DNA of 12,387 bases from a virus (lineage: Duplodnaviria > Heunggongvirae > Uroviricota > Caudoviricetes), in the IMG/VR virus record IMGVR_UViG_3300015182_000009. One strand, written 5' to 3'. Positions 1-12,387 of this stretch are shown one piece after another. The notes beneath the pieces are model-generated. The model ran no database searches, had not been told where the DNA came from, and saw nothing but the letters and a program-made list of their open reading frames with translations. Each line of letters opens with the position of its first letter. Position 1 is the first letter of the stretch. The translations under genes were made by a program, and so were the position numbers.

Positions 1-55
1 GATACGGCGACCACCGAGATCTACACTCTTTCCCTACACGACGCTCTTCCGATCT
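1..55. other. Illumina TruSeq universal (P5) adapter sequence; sequencing/assembly artefact, not genomic
   Basis: Positions 1-55 read GATACGGCGACCACCGAGATCTACACTCTTTCCCTACACGACGCTCTTCCGATCT, which is the TruSeq universal adapter minus its first three bases (AAT). Genomic sequence starts at 56. Confidence 0.9.
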
Positions 56-84
56 ATGAAAATGCGTCTTAGGAAGGTTAAATA

Positions 85-475
85 ATGCACGAAAAGAACA
101 TCGCCCTGCTTTGTGATGAAGCCGACCGACTTTTGCAACTGAACATTAATCTGCTCCGGCAAATGGTTGAGGAGCCAGATGTGTTATCTGACAGTAAGAA
201 CGAAAACAGACTGCTTTTTGATAAACAGAAAGCACTGAAAAGAATTGAGGAGCTGGAGGGCGAACAAATCAAAACCGCCCGCAGGGAGATGGTGCTGGCT
301 GTTGTCGGCACGATGAAAGCAGGCAAATCAACCACCATCAACGCCATTGTGGGGCAGGAAATTCTGCCTAACCGTAACCGCCCCATGACCTCTGTACCGA
401 CGCTCATCCGCCACGTTCCCGGAAAAACTGAGCCGGTTCTCCATCTGGAACATATTCAGCCTGTCCGCAATTTAT
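85..475 (+). pseudogene. Dynamin-like GTPase (CrfC/YjdA-like), N-terminal ~130 codons, truncated by the IS66 insertion
   Basis: ATG at 85 preceded by AGGAAGG. Translation contains a P-loop GTMKAGKST followed by TINAIVGQEILPNRNRPMTSVPTLIRH, as I recall for E. coli CrfC/YjdA. The track ORF 85..519 continues into the IS terminal repeat from 476, so its last 14 codons are IS-derived. Confidence 0.6.
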
Positions 476-501
476 GTAAGCGTCAACGGAGCACCGTATT
501 G
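476..501. repeat. IS66 terminal inverted repeat (IRR in element orientation)
   Basis: GTAAGCGTCAACGGAGCACCGTATTG matches about 19 of 24 positions with the reverse complement of the other end. Confidence 0.6.
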
Positions 502-505
502 ACGC

Positions 506-2119
506 TTATTTATTGGTGAGTACTACGTTCCATGGCAGGAGTTCATCAACTCGGTTGGAAGGCCATTCCGGCAGTACGCTCAGGATATGGCGCAGATACG
601 CTTCCGGATCGATACCGTTCAGACGGCAGGTGCCGATCAGCCCGTACAACAGTGCTCCACGCTCGCCGCCGTGATCGCTGCCAAAGAACATAAAGTTTTT
701 CTTTCCGAGACAGACTGCACGAAGCGCTCTTTCCGCAGCATTATTATCCGCCTCCGCCAGACCGTCATCACTGTAATAACAGAGGGCATCCCACTGATTC
801 AGTACATAGCTGAACGCTTCGCCCAGTCTGGATTTTTTCGACAGCGTACCATTCTTCTCCACCATCCATTCATGCAGCGACGTCAGTAACACTTTGCTTC
901 GCTGCTGCCTGACGGCAAGACGCTCTGACTCCGGTAATCCCCGTATTTCATCCTCGATGGCGTACAGTTCACTGATTCGCTTCAGTGCTTCTTCTGCCGT
1001 CGCACTTTTGCTGCTGATGTATACATCGTGGATTTTTCGCCGGGCATGGGCCCAGCACGCAACTTCTGTCAGTGCACCACCTTCACGTTCTGCACTGAAC
1101 AACCTGTCGTAACCTGTGAACGCATCCGCCTGCAGGATACCCCGGAAGGGGCGGAGGTGTTGCTCCGGGTGTTTCCCCTGCCGGTTCGGCGAGTACGCGA
1201 ACCAGACCGCTGGAGGAGATGACGAACCCACATTGCGATCATCCCGGACATACGTCCAGATACGCCCTGTTTTCGCCTTTTTCTGACCCGGTGCCAGTAC
1301 CTTTACCGGTGTGTCATCAGTGTGAATCTTGCGGGTGTTCATTACATAACGGTACAGGGCATCATTCACCGGTGTCATTAACTGGCAGCACGCGTCAACC
1401 CAGTTGGAGAGTAAGGCCCGGCTCAGTTCGACACCCTGGCGGGCAAAGATTTCACTCTGACGATACAGTGGCAGATGTTCGCAGTATTTTCCCGTTAACA
1501 CGCGGGCAAGTAATCCGGGGCCCGCGATACCACGCTCTATCGGGCGGGACGGCGCCGGTGCTTCAACAATACAGTCACATTTTGTACAGGCTTTTTTTAC
1601 CCGTTCTGTGCGGATCACTTTCAGGGCACTGCTCACCAGTTCCAGCTGTTCAGCGCTGACTTCCCCCAGATAATCCAGCTTACCGCCACACTCCGGGCAA
1701 CAGCTTTCTTCTGGCTCCAGGCGGTGTATTTCACGGGGAAGGTGTGCCGGTAACGGACGACGATGGCGCGACTGTCGCAACTGGCGGGGAACCTGAGGAT
1801 CGTCTTCCCGCCCACTGTAACGATCGCTGTCCTGTTCACGTTGTTTCAGCAGAGCCTCAGCCAGTTCAACTTCACGACGCAGTTTTTCAGAACGGGTACC
1901 GAACAGCATCCGGCGCAGTTTTTCTATCTGAGCCCGCAGATGTTCTATTTCCCGTTCATCTTCTTCGATCTTTTCTTCGGCACGTGTCAGTGCAGAGCGC
2001 AGGAAGGCTTCCGTCTCTTCAACCAGACTCAGTTGCTGGTCTTTCTGACGGAGGGCTTCAGCCTGCTCAGAGAGCAACCTTTCCAGCTCTGCGATGCGAA
2101 TGAGGTATTTCTGACTCAT
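506..2119 (-). CDS. tnpC: IS66-family transposase TnpC (orf3)
   Basis: 537-aa ORF with a coiled/leucine-rich N-terminus and Cys motifs CPECGGK...CTKCDC, recognised as the large IS66 transposase. It lies 30 nt downstream of orf2. Confidence 0.88.
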   Translation of the reverse strand: MSQKYLIRIAELERLLSEQAEALRQKDQQLSLVEETEAFLRSALTRAEEKIEEDEREIEHLRAQIEKLRRMLFGTRSEKLRREVELAEALLKQREQDSDRYSGREDDPQVPRQLRQSRHRRPLPAHLPREIHRLEPEESCCPECGGKLDYLGEVSAEQLELVSSALKVIRTERVKKACTKCDCIVEAPAPSRPIERGIAGPGLLARVLTGKYCEHLPLYRQSEIFARQGVELSRALLSNWVDACCQLMTPVNDALYRYVMNTRKIHTDDTPVKVLAPGQKKAKTGRIWTYVRDDRNVGSSSPPAVWFAYSPNRQGKHPEQHLRPFRGILQADAFTGYDRLFSAEREGGALTEVACWAHARRKIHDVYISSKSATAEEALKRISELYAIEDEIRGLPESERLAVRQQRSKVLLTSLHEWMVEKNGTLSKKSRLGEAFSYVLNQWDALCYYSDDGLAEADNNAAERALRAVCLGKKNFMFFGSDHGGERGALLYGLIGTCRLNGIDPEAYLRHILSVLPEWPSNRVDELLPWNVVLTNK

Positions 2120-2149
2120 GACCGTTTTTATAATGCGGTCAGGAGTTTT

Positions 2150-2500
2150 TTACAACATTGTCAGTGAGTTACGGCTGGATGTTTTTGGCTGACGCCAGTC
2201 CAGCTTATCGAGGAGCATTGCCAGTTGCGAGCGGGTAATGGATACCTTGCCGTCACGTACCGCAGGCCAGATAAACTGGCCTTCCTCCAGGCGTTTGGTG
2301 AACAGGCACAGACCATCAGCATCAGCCCAAAGAATTTTGACGGTGTCACCCCGTCGGCCACGGAAGATAAACAGGTGACCGGAGAAGGGATTATCATTCA
2401 GCACATGTTGTACCTGTTCTCCCAGTCCGTTGAAGGATTTACGCATATCGGTAACGCCGGCAACGAGCCAGATACGGGTACCTGATGGGAGTGAGATCAT
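2150..2500 (-). CDS. tnpB: IS66-family accessory protein TnpB (orf2)
   Basis: 116-aa ORF (MISLPSGTRIWLVAGVTDMRKSFNGL...) typical of IS66 orf2. Its start overlaps the orf1 stop by 4 nt (2497-2500), consistent with translational coupling. Confidence 0.85.
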   Translation of the reverse strand: MISLPSGTRIWLVAGVTDMRKSFNGLGEQVQHVLNDNPFSGHLFIFRGRRGDTVKILWADADGLCLFTKRLEEGQFIWPAVRDGKVSITRSQLAMLLDKLDWRQPKTSSRNSLTML

Positions 2501-2922
2501 CTTCCCCTCCCGGTCAGTTCACGGATCAACACTGTGAGCAGCTCTGGCGATGGATTTTCCAGCGTCATGTTACCGTGACGGAATTCCACCTTGCAGGAAC
2601 TGGCACTGACTCTGGTCTGAGTGGAAGTGGATAAAGACGGCGCAATGGCCGCCACAGGTTCTTTCTGCTCATCCGGCGTTATTTCTACAGGTAATAATTC
2701 AACGCCAGTGTCAGAAGAGGTCGTTACCGGAAGACGCCGCGAAACACGCCCTTCGTTCTGCCAGAGCCTGAGCCATTTGAAAATAACATTATCATTGACG
2801 CCATTTTCACGTGCAATCTGTGCAACACAAGCTCCAGGTTGTGATGCCAGTTCCACCATACGAAGTTTGAATTCATTCGAATAGTTTTTACGAGGTTCTT
2901 TTCGCCAGTCCTGTAATTCCAT
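2497..2922 (-). CDS. tnpA: IS66-family accessory protein TnpA (orf1), helix-turn-helix
   Basis: 141-aa ORF; the segment ELASQPGACVAQIARENGVNDNVIFKWLR looks like an HTH. It is the first gene inward from the element's left repeat. Confidence 0.8.
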   Translation of the reverse strand: MELQDWRKEPRKNYSNEFKLRMVELASQPGACVAQIARENGVNDNVIFKWLRLWQNEGRVSRRLPVTTSSDTGVELLPVEITPDEQKEPVAAIAPSLSTSTQTRVSASSCKVEFRHGNMTLENPSPELLTVLIRELTGRGR

Positions 2923-2935
2923 ACTTAGATGTCCG

Positions 2936-2965
2936 TCTATATCAGATGGGCGTCTAAGTTACCAA
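2936..2965 (-). promoter_or_regulatory. Possible sigma70-like promoter for the IS66 orf1-3 operon
   Basis: On the minus strand, TTGGTA, an 18-nt spacer, then TATAGA, located between the left repeat and the orf1 start. Sequence resemblance only. Confidence 0.2.
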
Positions 2966-2981
2966 TTCTCGTCTGATGGCT

Positions 2982-3007
2982 ACATACGGCGGTCAGTTTA
3001 CGCTTAC
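2982..3007. repeat. IS66 terminal inverted repeat (IRL in element orientation)
   Basis: ...CGGCGGTCAGTTTACGCTTAC; its reverse complement GTAAGCGTAAACTGACCGCCG pairs with 476-501. Confidence 0.6.
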
Positions 3008-3009
3008 GG

Positions 3010-3204
3010 GTCAGGGCCATTGGAGATGTGAATGGTGGCGGTGGATTTGTTTATTCTCCCGTGTATCACATCAGCATTCAGAATCAAGGGAGCAATGGCG
3101 AGATAGATGCGCGCTCAGCCAGGGGACTGGTGGATCTGATCGACAGCAGGGTTGTGTCAATTATGCAGTCATCGCGTCGGGATGGAGGATTGTACAGTGC
3201 CTGA
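3010..3204 (+). pseudogene. H: Tail tape-measure protein (lambda H-like), C-terminal 64 codons only; 5' part removed at the IS66 junction
   Basis: Frame 1 is open from the IS boundary: VRAIGDVNGGGGFVYSPVYHISIQNQGSNGEIDARSARGLVDLIDSRVVSIMQSSRRDGGLYSA*. The stop at 3202-3204 sits 5 nt after the M start, as at the lambda H/M junction. There is no start codon or upstream sequence. Confidence 0.55.
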
Positions 3205-3538
3205 GCCTGAAGTTTTTAACTGGATCCCCCGTGAGGGGATGGAGACGACACGAAAGCCATCAGTTATTACGGTAAAGTTTGGTGACGGATATGAACAGCG
3301 ACGGGCTGGTGGTCTGAATGCGGATCTGAAAACGTTTAAACCGGTATTTCGTGTCACAGATGAATATTCCCGTGCCGCGCTGGACAGTTTTTTATCCCGT
3401 CATGCCGGGATTCGTGCTTTTTTGTGGCGTCCGCCAAAACACAACAGGACTGTCCGGGTTGTCTGCAGGGAGTGGAGCATTTCGGATAATGCCATGTATA
3501 CCGATTTTAACTGTACCTTTGAAGAGGTCACTCACTGA
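3197..3538 (+). CDS. M: Minor tail protein M (lambda gpM-like)
   Basis: Translation ...FNWIPREGMETTRKPSVITVKFGDGYEQRRAGGLNADLKTF... aligns with lambda gpM (FRWKVKPGMDV...VRFGDGYSQRAPAGLNANLKTY). I chose the GTG at 3197 because GGAGGA sits 7 nt upstream and it gives 113 aa against lambda's 109. In-frame ATGs at 3182 and 3152 (the track start) are alternatives. The stop overlaps the L start (TGATG). Confidence 0.8.
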   Translation: MPEPEVFNWIPREGMETTRKPSVITVKFGDGYEQRRAGGLNADLKTFKPVFRVTDEYSRAALDSFLSRHAGIRAFLWRPPKHNRTVRVVCREWSISDNAMYTDFNCTFEEVTH

Positions 3539-4236
3539 TGCAGGATATACAGCAGGAAACACTCAATGAGTGCACTAAAACGGAGCAATCCGCGCTGGTC
3601 GTGCTCTGGGAAATTGATCTGACAGAGGTCGGCGGAGATCGTTATTTCTTCTGTAATGAGCAGAACGAAAAAGGTGAACCAGTCACCTGGCAGGGGCGGC
3701 AGTATCAGGCTTATCCCATTCAGGGAAGCGGATTTGAGATGAACGGCAAAGGAGCCAGTGCAAGGCCAACGCTTAAAGTCTCTAATCTGTACGGCATGGT
3801 CACCGGGATGGCGGAAGATATGCAGAGTCTGGTCGGCGGAACGGTGGTCCGGCGTAAGGTTTACGCCCGTTTTCTGGATGCGGTGAACTTCGTCAACGGA
3901 AACAGTTACGCCGATCCGGAGCAGGAGGTGATCAGCCGCTGGCGCATTGAGCAGTGCAGCGAACTGAGCGCGGTGAGTGCCTCCTTTGTACTGTCCACGC
4001 CGACGGAAACGGATGGCGCTGTTTTTCCGGGACGTATCATGCTGGCCAACACCTGCACCTGGACCTATCGCGGTGACGAGTGCGGTTATAGCGGTCCGGC
4101 TGTCGCGGATGAATATGACCAGCCAACGTCCGATATCACGAAGGATAAATGCAGCAAATGCCTGAGCGGTTGTAAGTTCCGCAATAACGTCGGCAACTTT
4201 GGCGGCTTCCTTTCCATTAACAAACTTTCGCAGTAA
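3538..4236 (+). CDS. L: Minor tail protein L (lambda gpL-like)
   Basis: 232 aa, the same length as lambda gpL, with a Cys-rich C-terminus (CSKCLSGCKF). It sits immediately after M with an overlapping start. Confidence 0.9.
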   Translation: MQDIQQETLNECTKTEQSALVVLWEIDLTEVGGDRYFFCNEQNEKGEPVTWQGRQYQAYPIQGSGFEMNGKGASARPTLKVSNLYGMVTGMAEDMQSLVGGTVVRRKVYARFLDAVNFVNGNSYADPEQEVISRWRIEQCSELSAVSASFVLSTPTETDGAVFPGRIMLANTCTWTYRGDECGYSGPAVADEYDQPTSDITKDKCSKCLSGCKFRNNVGNFGGFLSINKLSQ

Positions 4237-4241
4237 ATCCC

Positions 4242-4985
4242 ATGACACAGACAGAATCAGCGATTCTGGCGCACGCCCGGCGATGTGCGCCAGCGGAGTC
4301 GTGCGGCTTCGTGGTAAGCACGCCGGAGGGGGAAAGATATTTTCCCTGCGTGAATATCTCCGGTGAGCCGGAGGCGTATTTCCGTATGTCGCCGGAAGAC
4401 TGGCTGCAGGCAGAAATGCAGGGTGAGATTGTGGCGCTGGTCCACAGCCACCCCGGTGGTCTGCCCTGGCTGAGTGAGGCCGACCGGCGGCTGCAGGTGC
4501 AGAGTGATTTGCCGTGGTGGCTGGTCTGCCGGGGGGCGATTCACAAGTTCCGCTGTGTGCCGCATCTTACCGGGCGGCGCTTTGAGCACGGGGTGACGGA
4601 CTGTTACACGCTGCTCCGGGATGCTTACCATCTGGCGGGAATTGAGATGCCTGATTTTCATCGTGAGGATGACTGGTGGCGTAACGGCCAGAATCTCTAT
4701 CTGGATAATCTGGAGGCGACGGGGCTGTATCAGGTGCCGTTGTCAGCGGCACAGCCGGGCGATGTGCTGCTGTGCTGTTTTGGTTCATCGGTGCCGAATC
4801 ACGCCGCAATTTACTGCGGCGACGGCGAGCTGCTGCACCATATTCCTGAACAACTGAGCAAACGAGAGAGGTACACCGACAAATGGCAGCGACGCACACA
4901 CTCCCTCTGGCGTCACCGGGCATGGCACGTATCTGCCTTTACGGGGATTTGCAACGATTTGGCCGCCGCATCGACCTTCGTGTGA
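4242..4985 (+). CDS. K: Tail tip assembly protein K (lambda gpK-like), MPN/JAMM plus NlpC/P60-like domains
   Basis: JAMM-type motif HSHPGGLPWLSEADR and a C-terminal Cys/His region (DCYTLL...HAAIY). The long ORF starts 5 nt after the L stop. The classical 199-aa lambda K corresponds to the internal ATG at 4386 (MSPEDWLQ...). The 3' end overlaps gene I by 103 nt. Confidence 0.85.
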   Translation: MTQTESAILAHARRCAPAESCGFVVSTPEGERYFPCVNISGEPEAYFRMSPEDWLQAEMQGEIVALVHSHPGGLPWLSEADRRLQVQSDLPWWLVCRGAIHKFRCVPHLTGRRFEHGVTDCYTLLRDAYHLAGIEMPDFHREDDWWRNGQNLYLDNLEATGLYQVPLSAAQPGDVLLCCFGSSVPNHAAIYCGDGELLHHIPEQLSKRERYTDKWQRRTHSLWRHRAWHVSAFTGICNDLAAASTFV

Positions 4986-5530
4986 AAACGGGGGCCGAAG
5001 CCATCCGGGCGCTGGCCATGCAGATCCCGGCGTTTCGTCAGAAACTGAGCGATGGCTGGTATCAGGTGCGCATTGCCGGGCGTGATGCAGGCGAAAACGA
5101 ATTATCAGCCCGTCTTAATGAGCCGCTGAAAAATGGTGCCGTGATCCACATCGTTCCGCGTCTTGCGGGAGCAAAAAGTGGCGGTGTGTTTCAGGCGGTG
5201 CTGGGTGCGGCGCTGATTGCAGTGGCGTGGTGGAACCCTGTGGGCTGGCTGGGAGCTGCGGCTGTATCGGGCATGTATGCTGCGGGGGCCAGTATGATCC
5301 TTGGCGGTGTGGCGCAGATGCTGGCACCGAAAGCCAGAACTCCCCGTACACAGACAACGGATAACGGTAAGCAGAACACCTATTTCTCCTCACTGGATAA
5401 CATGGTTGCCCAGGGCAATGTTCTGCCCGTTCTGTACGGTGAAATGCGCGTGGGGTCGCGGGTGGCTTCTCAGGAGATCAGCACGGCAGACGAAGGGGAC
5501 GGTGGTCAGGTTGTGGTGATTGGTCGCTGA
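4883..5530 (+). CDS. I: Tail tip assembly protein I (lambda gpI-like)
   Basis: Begins MAATHTLPLASPGMARICLYGDLQRFGRRIDLRVKTGAEAIRALA and ends ...QEISTADEGDGGQVVVIGR, as I recall for lambda gpI. 215 aa, with the start overlapping K in a different frame. Confidence 0.9.
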   Translation: MAATHTLPLASPGMARICLYGDLQRFGRRIDLRVKTGAEAIRALAMQIPAFRQKLSDGWYQVRIAGRDAGENELSARLNEPLKNGAVIHIVPRLAGAKSGGVFQAVLGAALIAVAWWNPVGWLGAAAVSGMYAAGASMILGGVAQMLAPKARTPRTQTTDNGKQNTYFSSLDNMVAQGNVLPVLYGEMRVGSRVASQEISTADEGDGGQVVVIGR

Positions 5531-5548
5531 TGCAAAACGTTTTATGTG

Positions 5549-5575
5549 AAACCGCCTCAGGGCGGTTTTGTCGTT
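5549..5575 (+). terminator. Stem-loop plus U-run between I and J (possible attenuator or RNA processing site)
   Basis: AAACCGCC-TCAG-GGCGGTTT then TGTCGTTT. The J ribosome-binding site GAGGA follows at 5586-5590. Confidence 0.35.
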
Positions 5576-5590
5576 TCTGGAGCGTGAGGA

Positions 5591-8500
5591 ATGGGTAAAG
5601 GCAGCAGTAAGGGGCATACCCCGCGCGAAGCGAAGGACAACCTGAAATCATCCCAGATGCTGAGCGTGATAGACGCCATCAGTGAAGGGCCGGTTGAAGG
5701 TCCGGTGGATGGATTAAAAAGCGTGCTGCTGAACAGTACGCCGGTGCTGGACACTGAGGGGAATACCAACATCTCCGGTGTCACGGTGGTGTTCCGTGCC
5801 GGTGAGCAGGAGCAGACACCGCCGGAGGGGTTTGAATCCTCCGGCTCCGAGACGGTGCTGGGTACGGAAGTGAAATATGACACGCCGATCACCCGCACCA
5901 TCACGTCTGCAAACATCGACCGTCTGCGCTTTACCTTCGGTGTGCAGGCACTGGTGGAAACCACCTCAAAGGGGGACCGGAATCCGTCGGAAGTTCGCCT
6001 GCTGGTTCAGATACAGCGTAATGGTGGCTGGGTGACGGAAAAAGACATCACCATTAAGGGCAAAACCACCTCGCAGTATCTGGCCTCGGTGGTGGTGGAT
6101 AACCTGCCGCCGCGCCCGTTTAATATCCGGATGCGCAGGATGACGCCGGACAGCACCACAGACCAGCTGCAGAACAAAACGCTCTGGTCGTCATACACCG
6201 AAATCATCGATGTGAAACAGTGCTACCCGAACACGGCACTGGTCGGCGTACAGGTGGATTCGGAGCAGTTCGGCAGCCAGCAGGTGAGCCGTAATTATCA
6301 TCTGCGCGGGCGCATTCTGCAGGTGCCGTCGAACTATAACCCGCAGACGCGGCAATACAGCGGTATCTGGGACGGAACGTTTAAACCGGCATACAGCAAC
6401 AACATGGCCTGGTGTCTGTGGGATATGCTGACCCATCCGCGCTACGGCATGGGGAAACGTCTTGGTGCGGCGGATGTGGATAAATGGGCGCTGTATGTCA
6501 TCGGCCAGTACTGCGACCAGTCGGTGCCGGACGGCTTTGGCGGCACGGAGCCGCGCATCACCTGTAATGCGTACCTGACCACACAGCGCAAGGCGTGGGA
6601 TGTGCTCAGTGATTTCTGCTCGGCGATGCGCTGTATGCCGGTATGGAACGGGCAGACGCTGACGTTCGTGCAGGACCGACCATCAGATAAGGTGTGGACC
6701 TATAACCGCAGTAATGTGGTGATGCCGGATGATGGCGCGCCGTTCCGCTACAGCTTCAGCGCCCTGAAAGACCGCCATAATGCCGTTGAGGTGAACTGGA
6801 TTGACCCGGACAACGGCTGGGAGACGGCGACAGAGCTTGTTGAAGATACGCAGGCCATTGCCCGTTACGGTCGTAACGTCACGAAGATGGATGCCTTTGG
6901 CTGTACCAGCCGGGGGCAGGCGCACCGCGCCGGGCTGTGGCTGATTAAAACGGAACTGCTGGAAACGCAGACCGTGGACTTCAGCGTGGGTGCGGAAGGG
7001 CTTCGCCATGTACCGGGGGATGTCATTGAAATCTGCGATGATGACTATGCGGGTATCAGCACCGGCGGGCGCGTGCTGGCGGTGAACAGCCAGACCCGGA
7101 CGCTGACGCTCGACCGTGAAATCACGCTGCCATCCTCCGGTACCACGCTGATAAGCCTGGTTGACGGTCAGGGTAATCCGGTCAGCGTGGAGGTCCAGTC
7201 CGTCACCGACGGCGTGAAGGTGAAAGTGAGCCGGGTTCCTGATGGTGTTGCAGAATACAGCGTGTGGGGGCTGAAGTTGCCGACGCTGCGCCAGCGCCTG
7301 TTCCGCTGTGTGAGTATCCGTGAGAACGATGACGGCACGTATGCCATCACCGCCGTGCAGCATGTACCGGAAAAAGAAGCCATCGTGGATAACGGGGCGC
7401 ACTTTGACGGCGACCAGAGCGGCACGGTGAATGGTGTCACGCCGCCAGCGGTGCAGCACCTGACTGCCGAAGTCACCGCAGACAGCGGGGAATATCAGGT
7501 GCTGGCGCGCTGGGACACGCCGAAGGTGGTGAAGGGCGTGAGCTTCCTGCTCCGTCTGACCGTAACAGCGGATGACGGCAGTGAGTGGCTGGTCAGCACG
7601 GCCCGGACGACGGAAACCACTTACCGCTTCACACAACTGGCGCTGGGGAACTACAGGCTGACAGTCCGGGCAGTAAATGCGTGGGGGCAGCAGGGCGATC
7701 CGGCGTCGGTATCGTTCCGGATTGCCGCACCGGCAGCGCCGTCGCGGATTGAGCTGACGCCGGGCTATTTTCAGATAACCGCCACGCCGCATCTTGCGGT
7801 TTATGATCCGACGGTACAGTTTGAGTTCTGGTTCTCGGAAAAGCGGATTACCGATATCAGGCAGGTTGAAACCACAGCACGCTATCTTGGCACGGCGCTG
7901 TACTGGATAGCCGCCAGTATCAATATCAAACCGGGCCATGATTATTACTTTTATATCCGCAGTGTGAACACCGTTGGCAAATCGGCATTCGTGGAGGCTG
8001 TTGGTCAGCCGAGTGATGATGCATCCGGTTATCTGGATTTTTTCAAAGGCGAGATAGGGAAAACCCATCTGGCTCAGGAGCTGTGGACGCAGATTGATAA
8101 CGGTCAGCTTGCGCCTGACCTGGCTGAAATCAGGACGTCCATTACGGATGTCAGCAATGAAATCACGCAGACCGTCAATAAGAAACTGGAAGACCAGAGT
8201 GCGGCAATTCAGCAGATACAGAAGGTTCAGGTTGATACAAATAATAACCTGAACAGCATGTGGGCTGTGAAGCTGCAGCAGATGCAGGACGGACGCCTTT
8301 ATATCGCGGGTATTGGTGCCGGTATTGAGAACACCCCTGACGGCATGCAGAGTCAGGTGCTGCTGGCGGCAGACAGGATTGCGATGATTAATCCTGCGAA
8401 TGGCAACACAAAGCCGATGTTTGTTGGGCAGGGCGATCAGATATTCATGAACGAAGTGTTCCTGAAACGCCTGACGGCTCCCACCATTACCAGCGGCGGT

Positions 8501-9070
8501 AATCCTCCGGTATTTTCCCTGACACCGGACGGGCGGCTGACGGCGAAAAATGCCGATATCAGCGGTAACGTGAATGCGAACGCCGGGACGCTCAACAACG
8601 TCACGATTAACGAGAACTGTCGGGTTCTGGGAAAACTGTCCGCCAACCAGATTGAAGGCGATCTCGTTAAAACAGTGGGCAAAGCTTTCCCCCGGGACTC
8701 CCGTGCACCGGAACGGTGGCCATCAGGGACCATCACCGTCAGGGTTTATGACGATCAGCCGTTTGACCGGCAGATTGTTATTCCGGCGGTGGCATTCAGC
8801 GGCGCTAAACATGAGCGGGAGAATAACGATATTTATTCGTCATGCCGCCTGATAGTACGGAAAAACGGTGCTGAAATTTATAACCGTACCGCGCTGGATA
8901 ATACGCTGATTTACAGTGGTGTTATTGATATGCCTGCCGGTCACGGTCACATGACACTGGAGTTTTCGGTGTCAGCATGGCTGGTAAATAACTGGTATCC
9001 CACAGCCAGTATCAGCGATTTGCTGGTTGTGGTGATGAAGAAAGCCACTGCAGGCATCACGATTAGCTGA
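5591..9070 (+). CDS. J: Central tail fibre / host specificity protein J (lambda gpJ-like)
   Basis: 1159-aa ORF starting [20 protein letters not shown]..., as recalled for lambda gpJ (1132 aa). The long antisense ORF 6683..8068 is a by-product of this gene's composition. Confidence 0.92.
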
Positions 9071-9088
9071 ATTTTATAACCCAGATAC

Positions 9089-9113
9089 GGGCGCCAGAAA
9101 TGGCGCCTTTTTT
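9089..9113 (+). terminator. Rho-independent terminator downstream of J
   Basis: GGCGCC-AGAAAT-GGCGCC hairpin (9090-9107) followed by TTTTTT (9108-9113). Confidence 0.7.
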
Positions 9114-9137
9114 ATTGCAGAAAAGCGAGAGGTAATT

Positions 9138-9737
9138 ATGCGTAAAGTTTATGCAGCTATTTTGTCCGCAGCCATCTGTCTGGCCGTATCAGGTACGCCT
9201 GCATGGGCGTCTGAACACCAGTCCACACTGAGCGCAGGGTATCTTCATGCCCGTACGAACGTCCCCGGCAGCGATAATCTGAACGGGATTAACGTGAAAT
9301 ACCGTTATGAATTTACGGACACGCTGGGGCTGGTGACGTCATTCAGTTATGCCAATGCCAAAGATGAGCAAAAAACGCATTACAGCGATACCCGCTGGCA
9401 TGAAGATTCCGTGCGTAACCGCTGGTTCAGCGTGATGGCGGGGCCGTCTGTGCGCGTGAATGAATGGTTCAGCGCGTATGCGATGGCGGGTATGGCTTAC
9501 AGCCGTGTGTCGACTTTCTCCGGGGATTATCTCCGCGTAACTGACAACAAGGGGAAAACGCACGACGTGCTGACCGGAAGTGATGACGGTCGCCACAGCA
9601 ACACGTCTCTGGCGTGGGGGGCTGGCGTGCAGTTTAACCCGACCGAATCCGTGGCCGTTGATGTCGCTTATGAAGGTTCCGGCAGTGGCGACTGGCGCAC
9701 TGACGGTTTCATCGTGGGTGTCGGTTATAAATTCTGA
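9138..9737 (+). CDS. lom: Outer-membrane protein Lom (Ail/Lom/OmpX family beta-barrel), a lysogenic-conversion moron
   Basis: 199 aa with a signal peptide (MRKVYAAILSAAICLAVSGTPAWA) and a C-terminus ...YEGSGSGDWRTDGFIVGVGYKF matching the lambda Lom ending. The ribosome-binding site GAGAGG lies upstream. Its position between J and stf is as in lambda. Confidence 0.9.
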   Translation: MRKVYAAILSAAICLAVSGTPAWASEHQSTLSAGYLHARTNVPGSDNLNGINVKYRYEFTDTLGLVTSFSYANAKDEQKTHYSDTRWHEDSVRNRWFSVMAGPSVRVNEWFSAYAMAGMAYSRVSTFSGDYLRVTDNKGKTHDVLTGSDDGRHSNTSLAWGAGVQFNPTESVAVDVAYEGSGSGDWRTDGFIVGVGYKF

Positions 9738-9763
9738 TTAGCCAGGTAACACAGTGTTATGAC

Positions 9764-9790
9764 AGCCCGCCGGTTCAGGCGGGCTTTTTT
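9764..9790 (+). terminator. Rho-independent terminator downstream of lom
   Basis: AGCCCGCC-GGTTCA-GGCGGGCT hairpin followed by TTTTTT. Confidence 0.75.
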
Positions 9791-9801
9791 GTGGGGTGAA
9801 T

Positions 9802-12387
9802 ATGGCAGTAAAGATTTCAGGTGTACTGAAAGACGGCACAGGAAAACCGGTACAGAACTGCACAATCCAGCTGAAAGCAAAACGTAACAGTACCACGGTG
9901 GTGGTGAACACGCTGGCCTCAGAAAATCCGGATGAAGCCGGGCGTTACAGCATGGACGTTGAGTACGGTCAGTACAGCGTTATTCTGTTGGTGGAAGGAT
10001 TCCCGCCGTCACATGCCGGGACCATCACCGTGTATGAAGATTCCCGACCCGGTACGCTGAATGATTTTCTCGGTGCCATGACGGAGGATGATGCCCGTCC
10101 TGAGGCACTGCGCCGTTTTGAACTGATGGTGGAAGAGGTGGCGCGTAACGCGTCCGCGGTGGCACAGAACACGGCAGCCGCGAAGAAGTCAGCCAGCGAT
10201 GCCAGCACATCAGCCCGTGAGGCGGCAACCCGTGCGACTGATGCTGCAGGCTCAGCACGTGCAGCCAGCACGTCAGCCGGACAGGCCGCGTCGTCGGCTC
10301 AGTCAGCGTCTTCCAGCGCAGGAACGGCATCAACAAAGGCCACTGAAGCATCAAAAAGTGCTGCCGCCGCAGAGTCTTCAAAAAGCGCGGCAGCCACCAG
10401 TGCCGGTGCAGCGAAAACGTCGGAAATGAATGCCGCAGCATCACAAAAATCTGCGGCCACATCTGCATCCACCGCGACCACGAAAGCGTCAGAAGCTGCC
10501 ACCTCAGCCCGGGATGCGTCGGCTTCAAAAGTGGCGGCAAAATCATCAGAAACGAGCGCTGCCTCGAGCGCCGGCAGTGCAGCTTCCTCGGCAACGGCAG
10601 CAGGAAATTCCGCGAAGGCCGCAAAAACGTCTGAGACGAATGCGGATAACAGCGCACAGGCGGCAGCAGACTCACAAACTGCATCGGCAAACTCCGCGAC
10701 AGCAGCCAAAAAATCAGAAACCAACGCGAAAAATAGTGAGGCAGCAGCAAAGGTCAGCGAAACCAACGCTAAAGCGTCAGAGAACAAGGCGAAAGAATAT
10801 CTCGACAAGGTCGGGGGACTCGTCAGCCCGATGACGCAATACGATTGGCCCGTTGTTACTGGTAATGAGTCTTTTTACATAAAGATCGCGAAACTTTCCG
10901 ATCCCGGAAGCGGCAATTGCCATGTAACGCTAATGGTTACTAATGCCGGTAACTACGGCTCCCCTTACGGAAACATTGACTTTATCGAGATCTCGGCGCG
11001 CGGTCTGCCTTCTTTGCTTAGTGCGGATAATGTTTCTCGTCATCTGAGTATACGCCGCTTAGGGTCAACCGGGCTGACCGATAACAACCAGATGCGTTAC
11101 GGCCTGGTTAAAGGTGACGGCTTTATTGAGGTTTGGGCCTTCCAGCGCGCATTTATCAACGGCGCAAAGGTTGCGGTGCTGGCGCAGACGGCACGCCCGG
11201 AATTATACATTCCAGACGGATTTGTTAAGCAAACCGCCGCGCCTTCTGGATATGTTGAAAGCCCCGTTGTAAGGATTTACGACCAGTTAAACAAGCCGAC
11301 TAAAGCAGATTTGGGTCTTTCTAATGCTATGCTTACAGGCGCTTTCGGTCTTGGCGGTAGCGGGATATCAACAAACGGCAAGATGAGCGATGTAGAGATC
11401 TTAAAAGCTCTGCGTGACAAAGGTGGTCATTTCTGGCGCGGTGATAAGCCGACCGGAAGCACGGCGACCATTTATAGCCACGGTTCTGGTATATTCTCGC
11501 GGTGCGGCGATACGTGGTCAGCGATCAATATCGACTACTCAACCGCGAAGATTAAGATCTATGCCGGCAACGATGCCCGGCTTAACAACGGGACTTTTAG
11601 CATCAATGAGCTATACGGCTCGGCAAACAAGCCGTCGAAATCGGATGTTGGACTTGGCAACGTAACTAACGATGCGCAGGTGAAAAAATCCGGCGATGTT
11701 ATGTCTGGTGATCTTGATATATTGAAAGAAACGCCATCTATCAGGCTAAAATCAGCAAAAGGAACCGCTCATCTGTGGTTCATGAACAACGACGGAAGCG
11801 AGCGCGGCGTTGTTTGGTCGCCTGAAAACAACGAATCACTTGGCGAAATCCACATCAGGGCGAAAAACACAAAAGGTGAATCAAGTGGTGATTTTATTGT
11901 TCGCCACGACGGGAGGGTTGAGGCCCGCAATCTAAAAATAACTTACAAAATCAGCGCAGCCACCGCAGAATTTGCAAACACAAGCACCAGTTCCGATAAC
12001 ACTACGGTAAGCATCAAAGGATCTCAGCATACGCCTTTGGTTTTAACGAGCAACAACACAATTAAAAACTTGTCCATTGGGTTTAAGGTTGATGATGTTG
12101 ATCAAAAATACCTGGGTATAGCTGGTGACGGTGATTTGTATTTTGGTAGTTATTCTGACCACACAAAAAACAGCAAAGTAATCACACAAGCAAAACTCGA
12201 TAGCGGGGTGACGGTAGGCGGTAAAACAACCTTTTCTGACTTTGCCACATTTAACGCAGGTATGGCGGGATCTATCGAGCCGGAAACCATTGACAACAAG
12301 ACTATTGATTTAAACGACTTGATCATTGCTAATACAGTGGCTGGATCTGTTAAATACTATCAATGCAAAACTGTTGCAGGTGGTGCA
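9802..12387 (+). CDS. stf: Side tail fibre protein (lambda Stf-like N-terminus, divergent distal region); 3' end lies beyond the window
   Basis: ATG at 9802 opens a frame-1 reading frame with no stop to the window end (862 codons). It is missing from the ORF track, presumably because that track lists only ORFs with a stop inside the window. The N-terminus MAVKISGVLKDGTGKPVQNCTIQLKA...SMDVEYGQYSVIL...FPPSHAGTITVYEDS matches lambda Stf, followed by an Ala/Ser/Thr/Lys-rich shaft and then an unrelated AT-richer distal region. Confidence 0.85.
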   Translation, partial: MAVKISGVLKDGTGKPVQNCTIQLKAKRNSTTVVVNTLASENPDEAGRYSMDVEYGQYSVILLVEGFPPSHAGTITVYEDSRPGTLNDFLGAMTEDDARPEALRRFELMVEEVARNASAVAQNTAAAKKSASDASTSAREAATRATDAAGSARAASTSAGQAASSAQSASSSAGTASTKATEASKSAAAAESSKSAAATSAGAAKTSEMNAAASQKSAATSASTATTKASEAATSARDASASKVAAKSSETSAASSAGSAASSATAAGNSAKAAKTSETNADNSAQAAADSQTASANSATAAKKSETNAKNSEAAAKVSETNAKASENKAKEYLDKVGGLVSPMTQYDWPVVTGNESFYIKIAKLSDPGSGNCHVTLMVTNAGNYGSPYGNIDFIEISARGLPSLLSADNVSRHLSIRRLGSTGLTDNNQMRYGLVKGDGFIEVWAFQRAFINGAKVAVLAQTARPELYIPDGFVKQTAAPSGYVESPVVRIYDQLNKPTKADLGLSNAMLTGAFGLGGSGISTNGKMSDVEILKALRDKGGHFWRGDKPTGSTATIYSHGSGIFSRCGDTWSAINIDYSTAKIKIYAGNDARLNNGTFSINELYGSANKPSKSDVGLGNVTNDAQVKKSGDVMSGDLDILKETPSIRLKSAKGTAHLWFMNNDGSERGVVWSPENNESLGEIHIRAKNTKGESSGDFIVRHDGRVEARNLKITYKISAATAEFANTSTSSDNTTVSIKGSQHTPLVLTSNNTIKNLSIGFKVDDVDQKYLGIAGDGDLYFGSYSDHTKNSKVITQAKLDSGVTVGGKTTFSDFATFNAGMAGSIEPETIDNKTIDLNDLIIANTVAGSVKYYQCKTVAGGA

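What the first reader, a model, noticed from the sequence alone, without database searches (positions are those of the whole stretch)
468..3015. IS66-family element joins two unrelated sequences with no target-site duplication
IS66-family elements normally make 8-bp target duplications. Here the 8 bp outside the left end (CAATTTAT, 468-475) and outside the right end (GGGTCAGG, 3008-3015) are unrelated. The left flank is a dynamin-like GTPase gene cut at codon ~130, and the right flank is the last 64 codons of a phage tape-measure gene. This looks like an IS-mediated deletion, inversion or recombination between two IS copies rather than a simple insertion. Given the adapter at the contig start, a chimeric assembly across a repeated IS is an alternative.
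Basis: partly seen in the sequence, partly recalled or inferred. Interest (0 to 1): 0.65.

Follow-up and report, generated by a model that had tools for sequence, protein, structure and literature searches.

The report
ISEc23 copy with mismatched flanks
A well-known E. coli insertion sequence (ISEc23) lies between the start of a dynamin-like gene and the end of a prophage tape-measure gene that normally sit about 0.9 Mb apart, and the join is most likely a short-read metagenome assembler running through a repeated element, not a new genome rearrangement.

Summary
Window 476-3007 is a complete 2,532-bp ISEc23 (IS66 family), 100% identical to copies in many closed E. coli genomes. It has intact tnpA, tnpB and tnpC and 24-nt terminal inverted repeats. 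The outside 8-mers (CAATTTAT and GGGTCAGG) share nothing, whereas 12 of 14 other ISEc23 copies I checked carry a target duplication.

The left flank is codons 1-130 of a 798-aa dynamin-family gene in the CP4-44-type island. The right flank is the last 64 codons of a 1,075-aa lambdoid tape-measure gene. Both flanks are 100% identical to MRSN346595-like E. coli.

In two independent closed genomes the two loci lie on the same strand, 0.90-0.95 Mb apart, with the phage at the lower coordinate. The join (dynamin 5' part, IS, tape-measure 3' part) therefore has the polarity of a tandem-duplication join or an excised circle. It cannot be a simple deletion or inversion on that backbone.

The window is a whole 12,387-bp JGI/IMG metagenome contig that starts with 55 nt of Illumina adapter, and ISEc23 is multi-copy in relatives.

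- **Best reading (about 0.6):** two ordinary insertions joined through the collapsed IS by the assembler.
- **Real rearrangement:** about 0.3.
- **Verdict:** ordinary, low interest.

The parts
1..55 (.). Illumina TruSeq universal adapter (bases 4-58 of the adapter), not genomic
   Evidence: Sequence read. The reverse complement of AGATCGGAAGAGC lies at 43-55. Homology to E. coli begins at base 56.
56..475 (+). Native upstream 29 nt plus codons 1-130 (and the first base of codon 131) of a dynamin-family GTPase gene of the CP4-44-type island. The ATG is at 85.
   Evidence: 100% identical to MRSN346595 and strain 4/2-1, where the intact gene encodes 798 aa. Pfam Dynamin_N.
85..519 (+). Chimeric 144-aa ORF: 130 dynamin residues plus 14 residues read from the IS end. 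It marks the left junction.
   Evidence: The exact protein is on record only from this 12,387-bp JGI/IMG contig and one ENA contig.
468..475 (.). 8 bp outside the tnpC-side IS end: CAATTTAT
   Evidence: The intact target reads CCGCAATTTAT|TAATCACACTG.
476..3007 (-). Complete ISEc23 (IS66 family), 2,532 bp, with its genes on the minus strand
   Evidence: 100% identity over the full length to annotated ISEc23 copies in many closed genomes. Same length and termini in 14 other copies.
476..499 (.). Terminal inverted repeat, tnpC-side (GTAAGCGTCAACGGAGCACCGTAT)
506..2119 (-). tnpC, IS66 DDE transposase, 537 aa
   Evidence: Pfam DDE_Tnp_IS66, zf-IS66, LZ_Tnp_IS66 and DDE_Tnp_IS66_C. RefSeq calls it 'IS66-like element ISEc23 family transposase'.
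2150..2500 (-). tnpB, IS66 accessory protein, 116 aa
   Evidence: Pfam TnpB_IS66, E = 1e-36
2497..2922 (-). tnpA, IS66 accessory helix-turn-helix protein, 141 aa
   Evidence: Pfam HTH_Tnp_1
2984..3007 (.). Terminal inverted repeat, tnpA-side
3008..3015 (.). 8 bp outside the tnpA-side IS end: GGGTCAGG
   Evidence: The intact target reads GGCTCTCTTG|GGGTCAGGGCC.
3008..3204 (+). 3' remnant of the lambdoid tape-measure gene (2 nt, 64 codons and the stop)
   Evidence: Window 3008 equals L004 20001 inside the intact 1,075-aa tape-measure gene at L004 16970-20197.
3182..12387 (+). Lambdoid tail module. Minor tail protein M 3182-3538, L 3538-4236, C40 peptidase K 4242-4985, I 4982-5530, J 5591-9070, Lom 9138-9737, and a tail-fibre gene from about 9802 that runs off the contig end.
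   Evidence: 100% identical over 9,380 bp to strain 4/2-1, MRSN346595, Sanji and many others. Annotation, Pfam.

Best explanation
The contig is a path through a collapsed repeat. The sampled E. coli population resembles MRSN346595 and carries at least two ordinary ISEc23 insertions. One is in the dynamin-family gene of the CP4-44-type island, after the first base of codon 131, with expected duplication CAATTTAT. The other is in the tape-measure gene of the potB/icd-side lambdoid prophage, in codon 1011, with expected duplication GGGTCAGG. Both IS-to-flank junctions are real read-supported sequence. The 2.5-kb IS is identical between copies and longer than a short-read insert, so the metagenome assembler joined the left flank of one copy to the right flank of the other. 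Shown here: the identity of the IS, both junction sequences, the lack of a duplication, the 0.9-Mb separation and same-strand polarity of the flanks in relatives, the presence of the IS elsewhere in relatives, and the untrimmed-adapter, short-read, metagenomic origin of the contig. Inferred: that two separate copies exist in the sample and that the assembler linked them wrongly.
For: (1) The window is one complete 12,387-bp JGI/IMG metagenome contig. It starts with 55 nt of Illumina adapter, so it is a short-read assembly with incomplete read cleaning. (2) The IS copy is 100% identical to the commonest ISEc23 allele. Closed relatives that carry both flanks at 100% identity also carry a 100% identical ISEc23 elsewhere (MRSN346595 at 336,379-338,910). 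The IS is therefore expected to be a repeat in the source that short reads cannot resolve. (3) Each junction uses the exact canonical IS terminus. The left junction appears independently in ENA metagenome contig ERZ27315463 k141_5504, which is 100% identical over window 56-569 and does not traverse the IS. This is what is expected if each junction belongs to a normal insertion. (4) ISEc23 usually makes simple insertions: 12 of 14 copies have a duplication. It also repeatedly hits this dynamin gene and this type of tape-measure gene as plain insertions (GCU-H1, GPEC673, EC15, strain 190). (5) On the backbone of MRSN346595 and strain 4/2-1 the phage tail lies at 1.27 or 1.22 Mb (+) and the dynamin gene at 2.22 or 2.12 Mb (+). 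The observed join is therefore not a viable deletion or inversion product. A random misjoin between two same-orientation copies gives this polarity half of the time.
Against: No reads are available, so the misjoin is not demonstrated. The two predicted partner junctions (IS end + CAATTTAT + TAATCACACTGC, and GGCTCTCTTGGGGTCAGG + IS end) were not found in any collection searched. Neither insertion occurs in 5,426 complete genomes. Careful assemblers normally break at multi-copy IS elements rather than bridge them, so a contig that traverses the IS could mean the copy was unbranched in the graph. Real ISEc23 copies without a duplication do exist in closed genomes (2 of 14: FY10 and FORC_031).
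Confidence: 0.6

Rival explanations
1. The join is real and marks an IS-mediated tandem duplication. Two same-orientation ISEc23 copies (in the dynamin gene and in the tape-measure gene) underwent unequal sister-chromosome recombination. This duplicated the 0.90-0.95 Mb interval between them, and dynamin 5' part, IS, tape-measure 3' part is the novel duplication join. The same join would be present on the excised non-replicating circle.
For: The polarity of the join is exactly that of a duplication or circle join on the backbone of two closed relatives. Both flanks and the IS are 100% identical to one lineage.
Against: From general knowledge, a 0.9-Mb tandem duplication is unstable and normally rare in a population, so it is unlikely to dominate an assembly. 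The interval runs from the potB/icd region to the sbmC/his region, which from my own knowledge of the K-12 map spans the replication terminus. Both parental junctions would also be present, so the short-read assembler still could not have resolved the join legitimately. No closed genome shows it.
Confidence: 0.13
2. The join is real but arose on a different or multi-step structure. One route is a composite transposon (ISEc23, tail module, ISEc23) that moved the tail genes into the dynamin gene. Another is an IS-IS inversion in a strain whose dynamin island or prophage was already inverted relative to the reference backbone.
For: In closed genomes 2 of 14 ISEc23 copies lack a duplication, one of them (FY10) right next to this dynamin gene. 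Real ISEc23-associated rearrangements in this island therefore occur. A composite-transposon insertion would look exactly like the window on its left side. The contig ends inside the tail-fibre gene, so the right side is unseen.
Against: It needs extra events for which there is no evidence. No second IS copy is seen in the 9.4 kb to the right. The prophage and the island are in the standard positions and orientation in both closed relatives examined. No related genome has phage tail genes in the island.
Confidence: 0.15
3. A simple IS-mediated adjacent deletion, or a single inversion, on the normal E. coli backbone.
For: The lack of a target duplication and the unrelated flanks are the classical signature of such events.
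Against: Both flanks are on the same strand, so an inversion is excluded. The dynamin 5' part (higher coordinate) is joined to the tape-measure 3' part (lower coordinate), so a deletion would have to remove about 3.85 Mb and leave only the 0.9-Mb interval. From my own knowledge of the K-12 map, that interval lacks oriC.
Confidence: 0.03
4. An ordinary insertion whose duplication was missed because the IS boundaries were set wrongly.
For: None beyond the prior that most copies have a duplication.
Against: The boundaries are fixed by 14 other copies of identical length and termini. No shared k-mer of 5 nt or more lies within 30 nt on either side. The flanks map 0.9 Mb apart.
Confidence: 0.01

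Closest known systems
ISEc23 (IS66 family; relatives IS679, ISEc8 and ISEc22)
   Same: Identical 2,532-bp sequence, the tnpA-tnpB-tnpC layout, terminal inverted repeats that start GTAAGCG, and exact canonical termini at both junctions.
   Different: This copy has no 8-bp target duplication, unlike 12 of the 14 copies surveyed.
Simple ISEc23 insertions in the same two gene types in closed genomes (dynamin gene: GCU-H1, GPEC673, EC15; tape-measure gene: strain 190)
   Same: Same element in the same orientation relative to the gene, and the same genes hit.
   Different: Those insertions are at other positions. Each has both halves of the interrupted gene on either side and an 8-bp duplication. 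Here the two halves belong to different genes.
Misjoin across a collapsed multi-copy repeat in a short-read (metagenome) assembly
   Same: The repeat is longer than a short-read insert, the copies are identical, the contig comes from a metagenome and starts in adapter sequence, and the flanks are 0.9 Mb apart in closed relatives.
   Different: Not demonstrated at read level. Many assemblers would have broken the contig at the IS ends.
IS-mediated tandem duplication joins and ISEc23 copies without a duplication in closed genomes (FY10, FORC_031)
   Same: A hybrid IS copy with flanks from two insertion sites, and the polarity of a duplication join.
   Different: The examples in closed genomes are local events within islands. 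Here the sites are 0.9 Mb apart.

Membership tests
IS66 family / ISEc23 | Three genes tnpA (helix-turn-helix), tnpB (IS66 Orf2-like) and tnpC (IS66 DDE transposase) in one direction | tested here: met
   Pfam HTH_Tnp_1, TnpB_IS66, and DDE_Tnp_IS66 with zf-IS66 and LZ_Tnp_IS66. ORFs at 2497-2922, 2150-2500 and 506-2119 on the minus strand.
IS66 family / ISEc23 | Imperfect terminal inverted repeats that begin GTAAGCG | tested here: met
   24-nt arms, 83% complementary, at 476-499 and 2984-3007.
IS66 family / ISEc23 | Near-identity to the named element over its full length | tested here: met
   100% over 2,532 bp to RefSeq-annotated ISEc23 copies.
IS66 family / ISEc23 | 8-bp target-site duplication flanking the copy | tested here: not met
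   CAATTTAT versus GGGTCAGG. The feature holds for 11 of 14 other copies, plus one with 9 bp. This is a property of the insertion event, not of element identity.
IS-mediated deletion between two direct copies | Lower-coordinate left flank joined to higher-coordinate right flank on the same strand | tested here: not met
   The join runs from higher to lower coordinate in MRSN346595 (2.217 Mb to 1.269 Mb) and in 4/2-1 (2.12 Mb to 1.22 Mb).
IS-mediated inversion | One flank inverted relative to the other compared with the ancestral arrangement | tested here: not met
   Both flanks are on the + strand in both closed relatives.
IS-mediated tandem duplication join | Higher-coordinate flank joined through the IS to the lower-coordinate flank on the same strand | tested here: met
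IS-mediated tandem duplication join | Roughly doubled read depth over the interval, and both parental junctions present | not testable with these tools
   No reads are available. The partner junctions are absent from the searchable collections.
Assembly misjoin across a collapsed repeat | The bridged element is multi-copy and identical in the source genome, and longer than the insert size | tested here: inconclusive
   It is multi-copy and 100% identical in the closest closed relatives, and 2.5 kb long. The copy number in the source sample itself cannot be measured.
Assembly misjoin across a collapsed repeat | No read or read pair physically links the two flanks | not testable with these tools
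   Needs the sample's reads or long reads.

The most novel reading that the evidence does not exclude
The join is physically real. Either an MRSN346595-like gut E. coli carries an ISEc23-bounded tandem duplication of about 0.9 Mb, or an ISEc23 composite transposon has moved a lambdoid tail module (M, L, K, I, J, Lom, tail fibre) into a dynamin-like gene of the CP4-44-type island.
Probability: 0.28. Interest if true: 0.3.

Novelty: already known. Interest (0 to 1): 0.1.

Why it matters
Biologically it matters little. ISEc23 is a described, abundant E. coli insertion sequence, and hybrid IS copies and repeat-bridging misassemblies are both textbook phenomena. The practical value is as a caution. 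This metagenome contig should not be used as evidence that a dynamin-like gene and phage tail genes are linked, or that IS66-family elements insert without a duplication. If the join were real, it would be one more example of IS-driven large-scale chromosome plasticity in a clinically common E. coli lineage.

Tried and rejected
- **Junctions in complete genomes.** I searched for either junction as a colinear match in 5,426 complete E. coli genomes and found none. The apparent 88-100% hits were non-colinear joins of nearby pieces, resolved with my own BLAST.
- **Exact junction scans.** Exact-pattern scans gave 0 hits in every collection. The right junction was scanned in IMG/VR, JGI metagenomes and GTDB genomes; the left junction in GTDB genomes; the tape-measure partner junction in IMG/VR; and the dynamin partner junction in JGI metagenomes. 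The window's own contig is evidently not in the searchable JGI set.
- **Look-ups by ORF.** The 58-aa tape-measure remnant found only a Logan contig that starts there. The 99-aa junction-spanning ORF is not on record. Minor tail protein M returned only loci with intact tape-measure genes.
- **Possible shared flank.** A 6-nt flank match between the window's left junction and an IS66-like end remnant in the island turned out to be an alignment artefact.
- **Right end of the contig.** I tested whether it is a repeat boundary, which would show how the assembler treats repeats. The next 600 bp are single-copy in the closest relatives, so the test was uninformative.
- **Composite transposon using an EC15-type upstream copy** (IS, 420 bp, IS). 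Rejected weakly, because base 56 is the native A rather than the IS-terminal C, and L003 shows native upstream sequence.
- **SNP mosaic within the IS.** Impossible to test, because the copy is identical to the common allele.
- **Literature searches** added nothing beyond showing that ISEc23 is a named, commonly reported element.
Full report
**What is in the sequence**

Window 1-55 is the Illumina TruSeq universal adapter. The reverse complement of AGATCGGAAGAGC lies at 43-55. E. coli sequence starts at base 56.

Bases 476-3007 form a 2,532-bp element bounded by 24-nt imperfect inverted repeats. On the minus strand it carries three ORFs:
- 141 aa, Pfam HTH_Tnp_1 (tnpA);
- 116 aa, Pfam TnpB_IS66 (tnpB);
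- 537 aa, Pfam DDE_Tnp_IS66 with the IS66 zinc-finger and leucine-zipper domains (tnpC).

The element is 100% identical over its full length to copies that RefSeq annotates as ISEc23, an IS66-family element, in dozens of closed E. coli chromosomes and plasmids. Its identity is not in doubt.

**The observation**

The 8 bp outside the two ends are CAATTTAT and GGGTCAGG. No 5-mer is shared between the 30 nt on either side, so moving the boundaries cannot rescue a direct repeat.

To see whether this is unusual for the element, I extracted 14 other full-length ISEc23 copies from closed genomes. All are exactly 2,532 bp with the same termini. Eleven have a perfect 8-bp duplication, one (EC958) has a 9-bp duplication, and two (FY10, FORC_031) have none. 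A missing duplication is therefore a minority state, but it is not rare.

**The flanks**

- **Left flank (56-475).** It is 100% identical to the upstream 29 nt plus the first 391 nt of a 798-aa 'dynamin family protein' gene. That gene lies in a CP4-44-type island next to yeeA, sbmC and dacD. The cut falls after the first base of codon 131. The intact target reads CCGCAATTTAT|TAATCACACTG.
- **Right flank (3008 onward).** It is 100% identical over 9,380 bp to the tail module of a lambdoid prophage that sits next to potB, potA and icd in many closed genomes. Window 3008 falls inside the intact 1,075-aa tape-measure gene, leaving 2 nt, 64 codons and the stop. The intact target reads GGCTCTCTTG|GGGTCAGGGCC.

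**Are the junctions real, and do they belong together?**

Each junction uses the exact canonical IS terminus, so each is a genuine transposition junction and not a k-mer overlap artefact.

The left junction is independently present in ENA metagenome contig ERZ27315463 k141_5504 (L003). That contig is 100% identical to window 56-569. It continues upstream into native sequence and the end of an ISEc12 element, the arrangement found in MRSN346595. It does not cross the IS: after 94 nt of IS it runs into Illumina adapter.

Other searches were negative:
- Neither junction occurs colinearly in any of 5,426 complete E. coli genomes.
- No genome has the two flanks adjacent without the IS.
- Exact-pattern scans for the window's junctions and for the predicted partner junctions found nothing in IMG/VR, JGI metagenome contigs or GTDB genomes.

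**Geometry**

Two independent closed genomes carry both flanks at 100% identity. Both loci lie on the + strand in each.

| Genome | Phage segment | Dynamin gene |
|---|---|---|
| MRSN346595 | 1,268,668-1,278,047 (+) | 2,216,706-2,219,102 (+) |
| 4/2-1 | 1,222,238-1,231,617 (+) | 2,121,187-2,123,583 (+) |

The two loci are therefore 0.90-0.95 Mb apart on the same strand, with the phage at the lower coordinate. If each flank belongs to a normal insertion, the two IS copies would be direct repeats. The possible outcomes are then:
- **Deletion** between them gives tape-measure 5' part, IS, dynamin 3' part.
- **Inversion** would flip one flank.
- **The window's arrangement** (dynamin 5' part, IS, tape-measure 3' part) is the reciprocal product. 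It is the join of a tandem duplication of the interval, or of the excised circle.

A real structure needs a duplication of about 0.9 Mb, a composite-transposon move of the tail module, or a prior rearrangement.

**Provenance and assembly**

The junction-specific 144-aa ORF (85-519) is on record from JGI/IMG on a single contig whose length is 12,387 bp. The window is therefore an entire metagenome contig.

It begins in untrimmed adapter, so it is a short-read assembly. ISEc23 at 2.5 kb exceeds short-read insert sizes. The copy here is identical to the common allele, and the closest closed relatives carry an identical copy elsewhere (MRSN346595 at 336,379-338,910, with duplication GATGTAAT). Whatever the true structure, the assembler crossed an element that is expected to be a repeat in the source, so the traversal itself carries little evidential weight.

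A random misjoin between two same-orientation copies yields the observed polarity half of the time. Among real events between such distant copies this polarity is the least stable outcome.

**Verdict**

- **Most likely (about 0.6):** two ordinary, separately duplicated ISEc23 insertions in one MRSN346595-like E. coli population, linked by the assembler through the collapsed IS.
- **Real hybrid copy (about 0.3 in total):** a duplication join, a composite transposon, or an inversion on a rearranged backbone remains possible. ISEc23 copies without a duplication exist in closed genomes, including one next to this same dynamin gene (FY10).
- **Simple deletion or inversion, or mis-set boundaries:** effectively excluded.

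Only reads or long reads from the sample can settle the question. Either way the element and the phenomenon are known, and the interest is low.

Noticed in passing
window 1-55: The contig starts with 55 nt of Illumina TruSeq universal adapter. The window is the entire 12,387-bp JGI/IMG metagenome contig, so read cleaning was incomplete.
   Followed up: yes
window 56-64; L001 7993-8000 and 10533-10540: The genomic part of the contig begins at base 56. That is 1 bp from the site where strain EC15 has an independent ISEc23 insertion (duplication TGAAAATG, equal to window 57-64). Base 56 is the native A, not the IS-terminal C, so this looks like coincidence, but it is an odd one.
   Followed up: partly
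L003 919-944 (ENA ERZ27315463 k141_5504): The only other public contig with the left junction also ends in Illumina adapter (AGATCGGAAGAGCACACGTCTGAACT), after just 94 nt of IS. This suggests very low read support for that junction in that sample, and possibly a related study or library type.
   Followed up: partly
window 85-475 and its counterparts in L001, L005, L018, L019, L020, L028: The dynamin-family gene and its immediate upstream region carry independent ISEc23 insertions at at least six different positions in different lineages (EC15, JNQH497, GCU-H1, GPEC673, FY10, and EC958 in a paralogue). Most are in the same orientation. This could be a local hot spot or local hopping from a resident island copy.
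   Followed up: partly
L020 4001-6532 (FY10); L027 1501-4032 (FORC_031): Two full-length ISEc23 copies in closed genomes lack any target duplication, so real ISEc23-associated rearrangements exist. EC958 (L028) has a 9-bp rather than an 8-bp duplication (TGATATTGA).
   Followed up: partly
TSDs listed: With all copies oriented as in the window, the 8-bp duplications are mostly A-rich in the centre (TGAAAATG, CAAAAATG, TGAAAACA, GGAAAAAG and others). This hints at an oriented target preference for ISEc23.
   Followed up: no
L006 22170-22334; L030 35651-35815: The CP4-44-type island carries a 159-165-nt remnant of an IS66-family end that is about 95% identical to window 476-634. Further upstream lies a second, more divergent IS66-family element with a truncated tnpC.
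   Followed up: no
window 12387 (contig end), equal to L004 29380: The contig stops inside the tail-fibre gene at a point where the following 600 bp are single-copy in the closest closed genomes but two-copy in some others. The cause may be strain variation in the sample.
   Followed up: partly
one search hits H81-H83 (MLI106K4, MLI106K2, Iso00041): In three closed genomes the same prophage tail module is interrupted by a different IS66-family element (ISEc22), so this tail region has been hit by IS66-family elements more than once.
   Followed up: no
cluster of P0001: The 90% cluster of the chimeric ORF has 783 members, many of them partial N-terminal dynamin fragments from draft E. coli genomes. 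One example is P0006, 128 aa, found on 15 contigs and ending about 7 nt before this junction.
   Followed up: no
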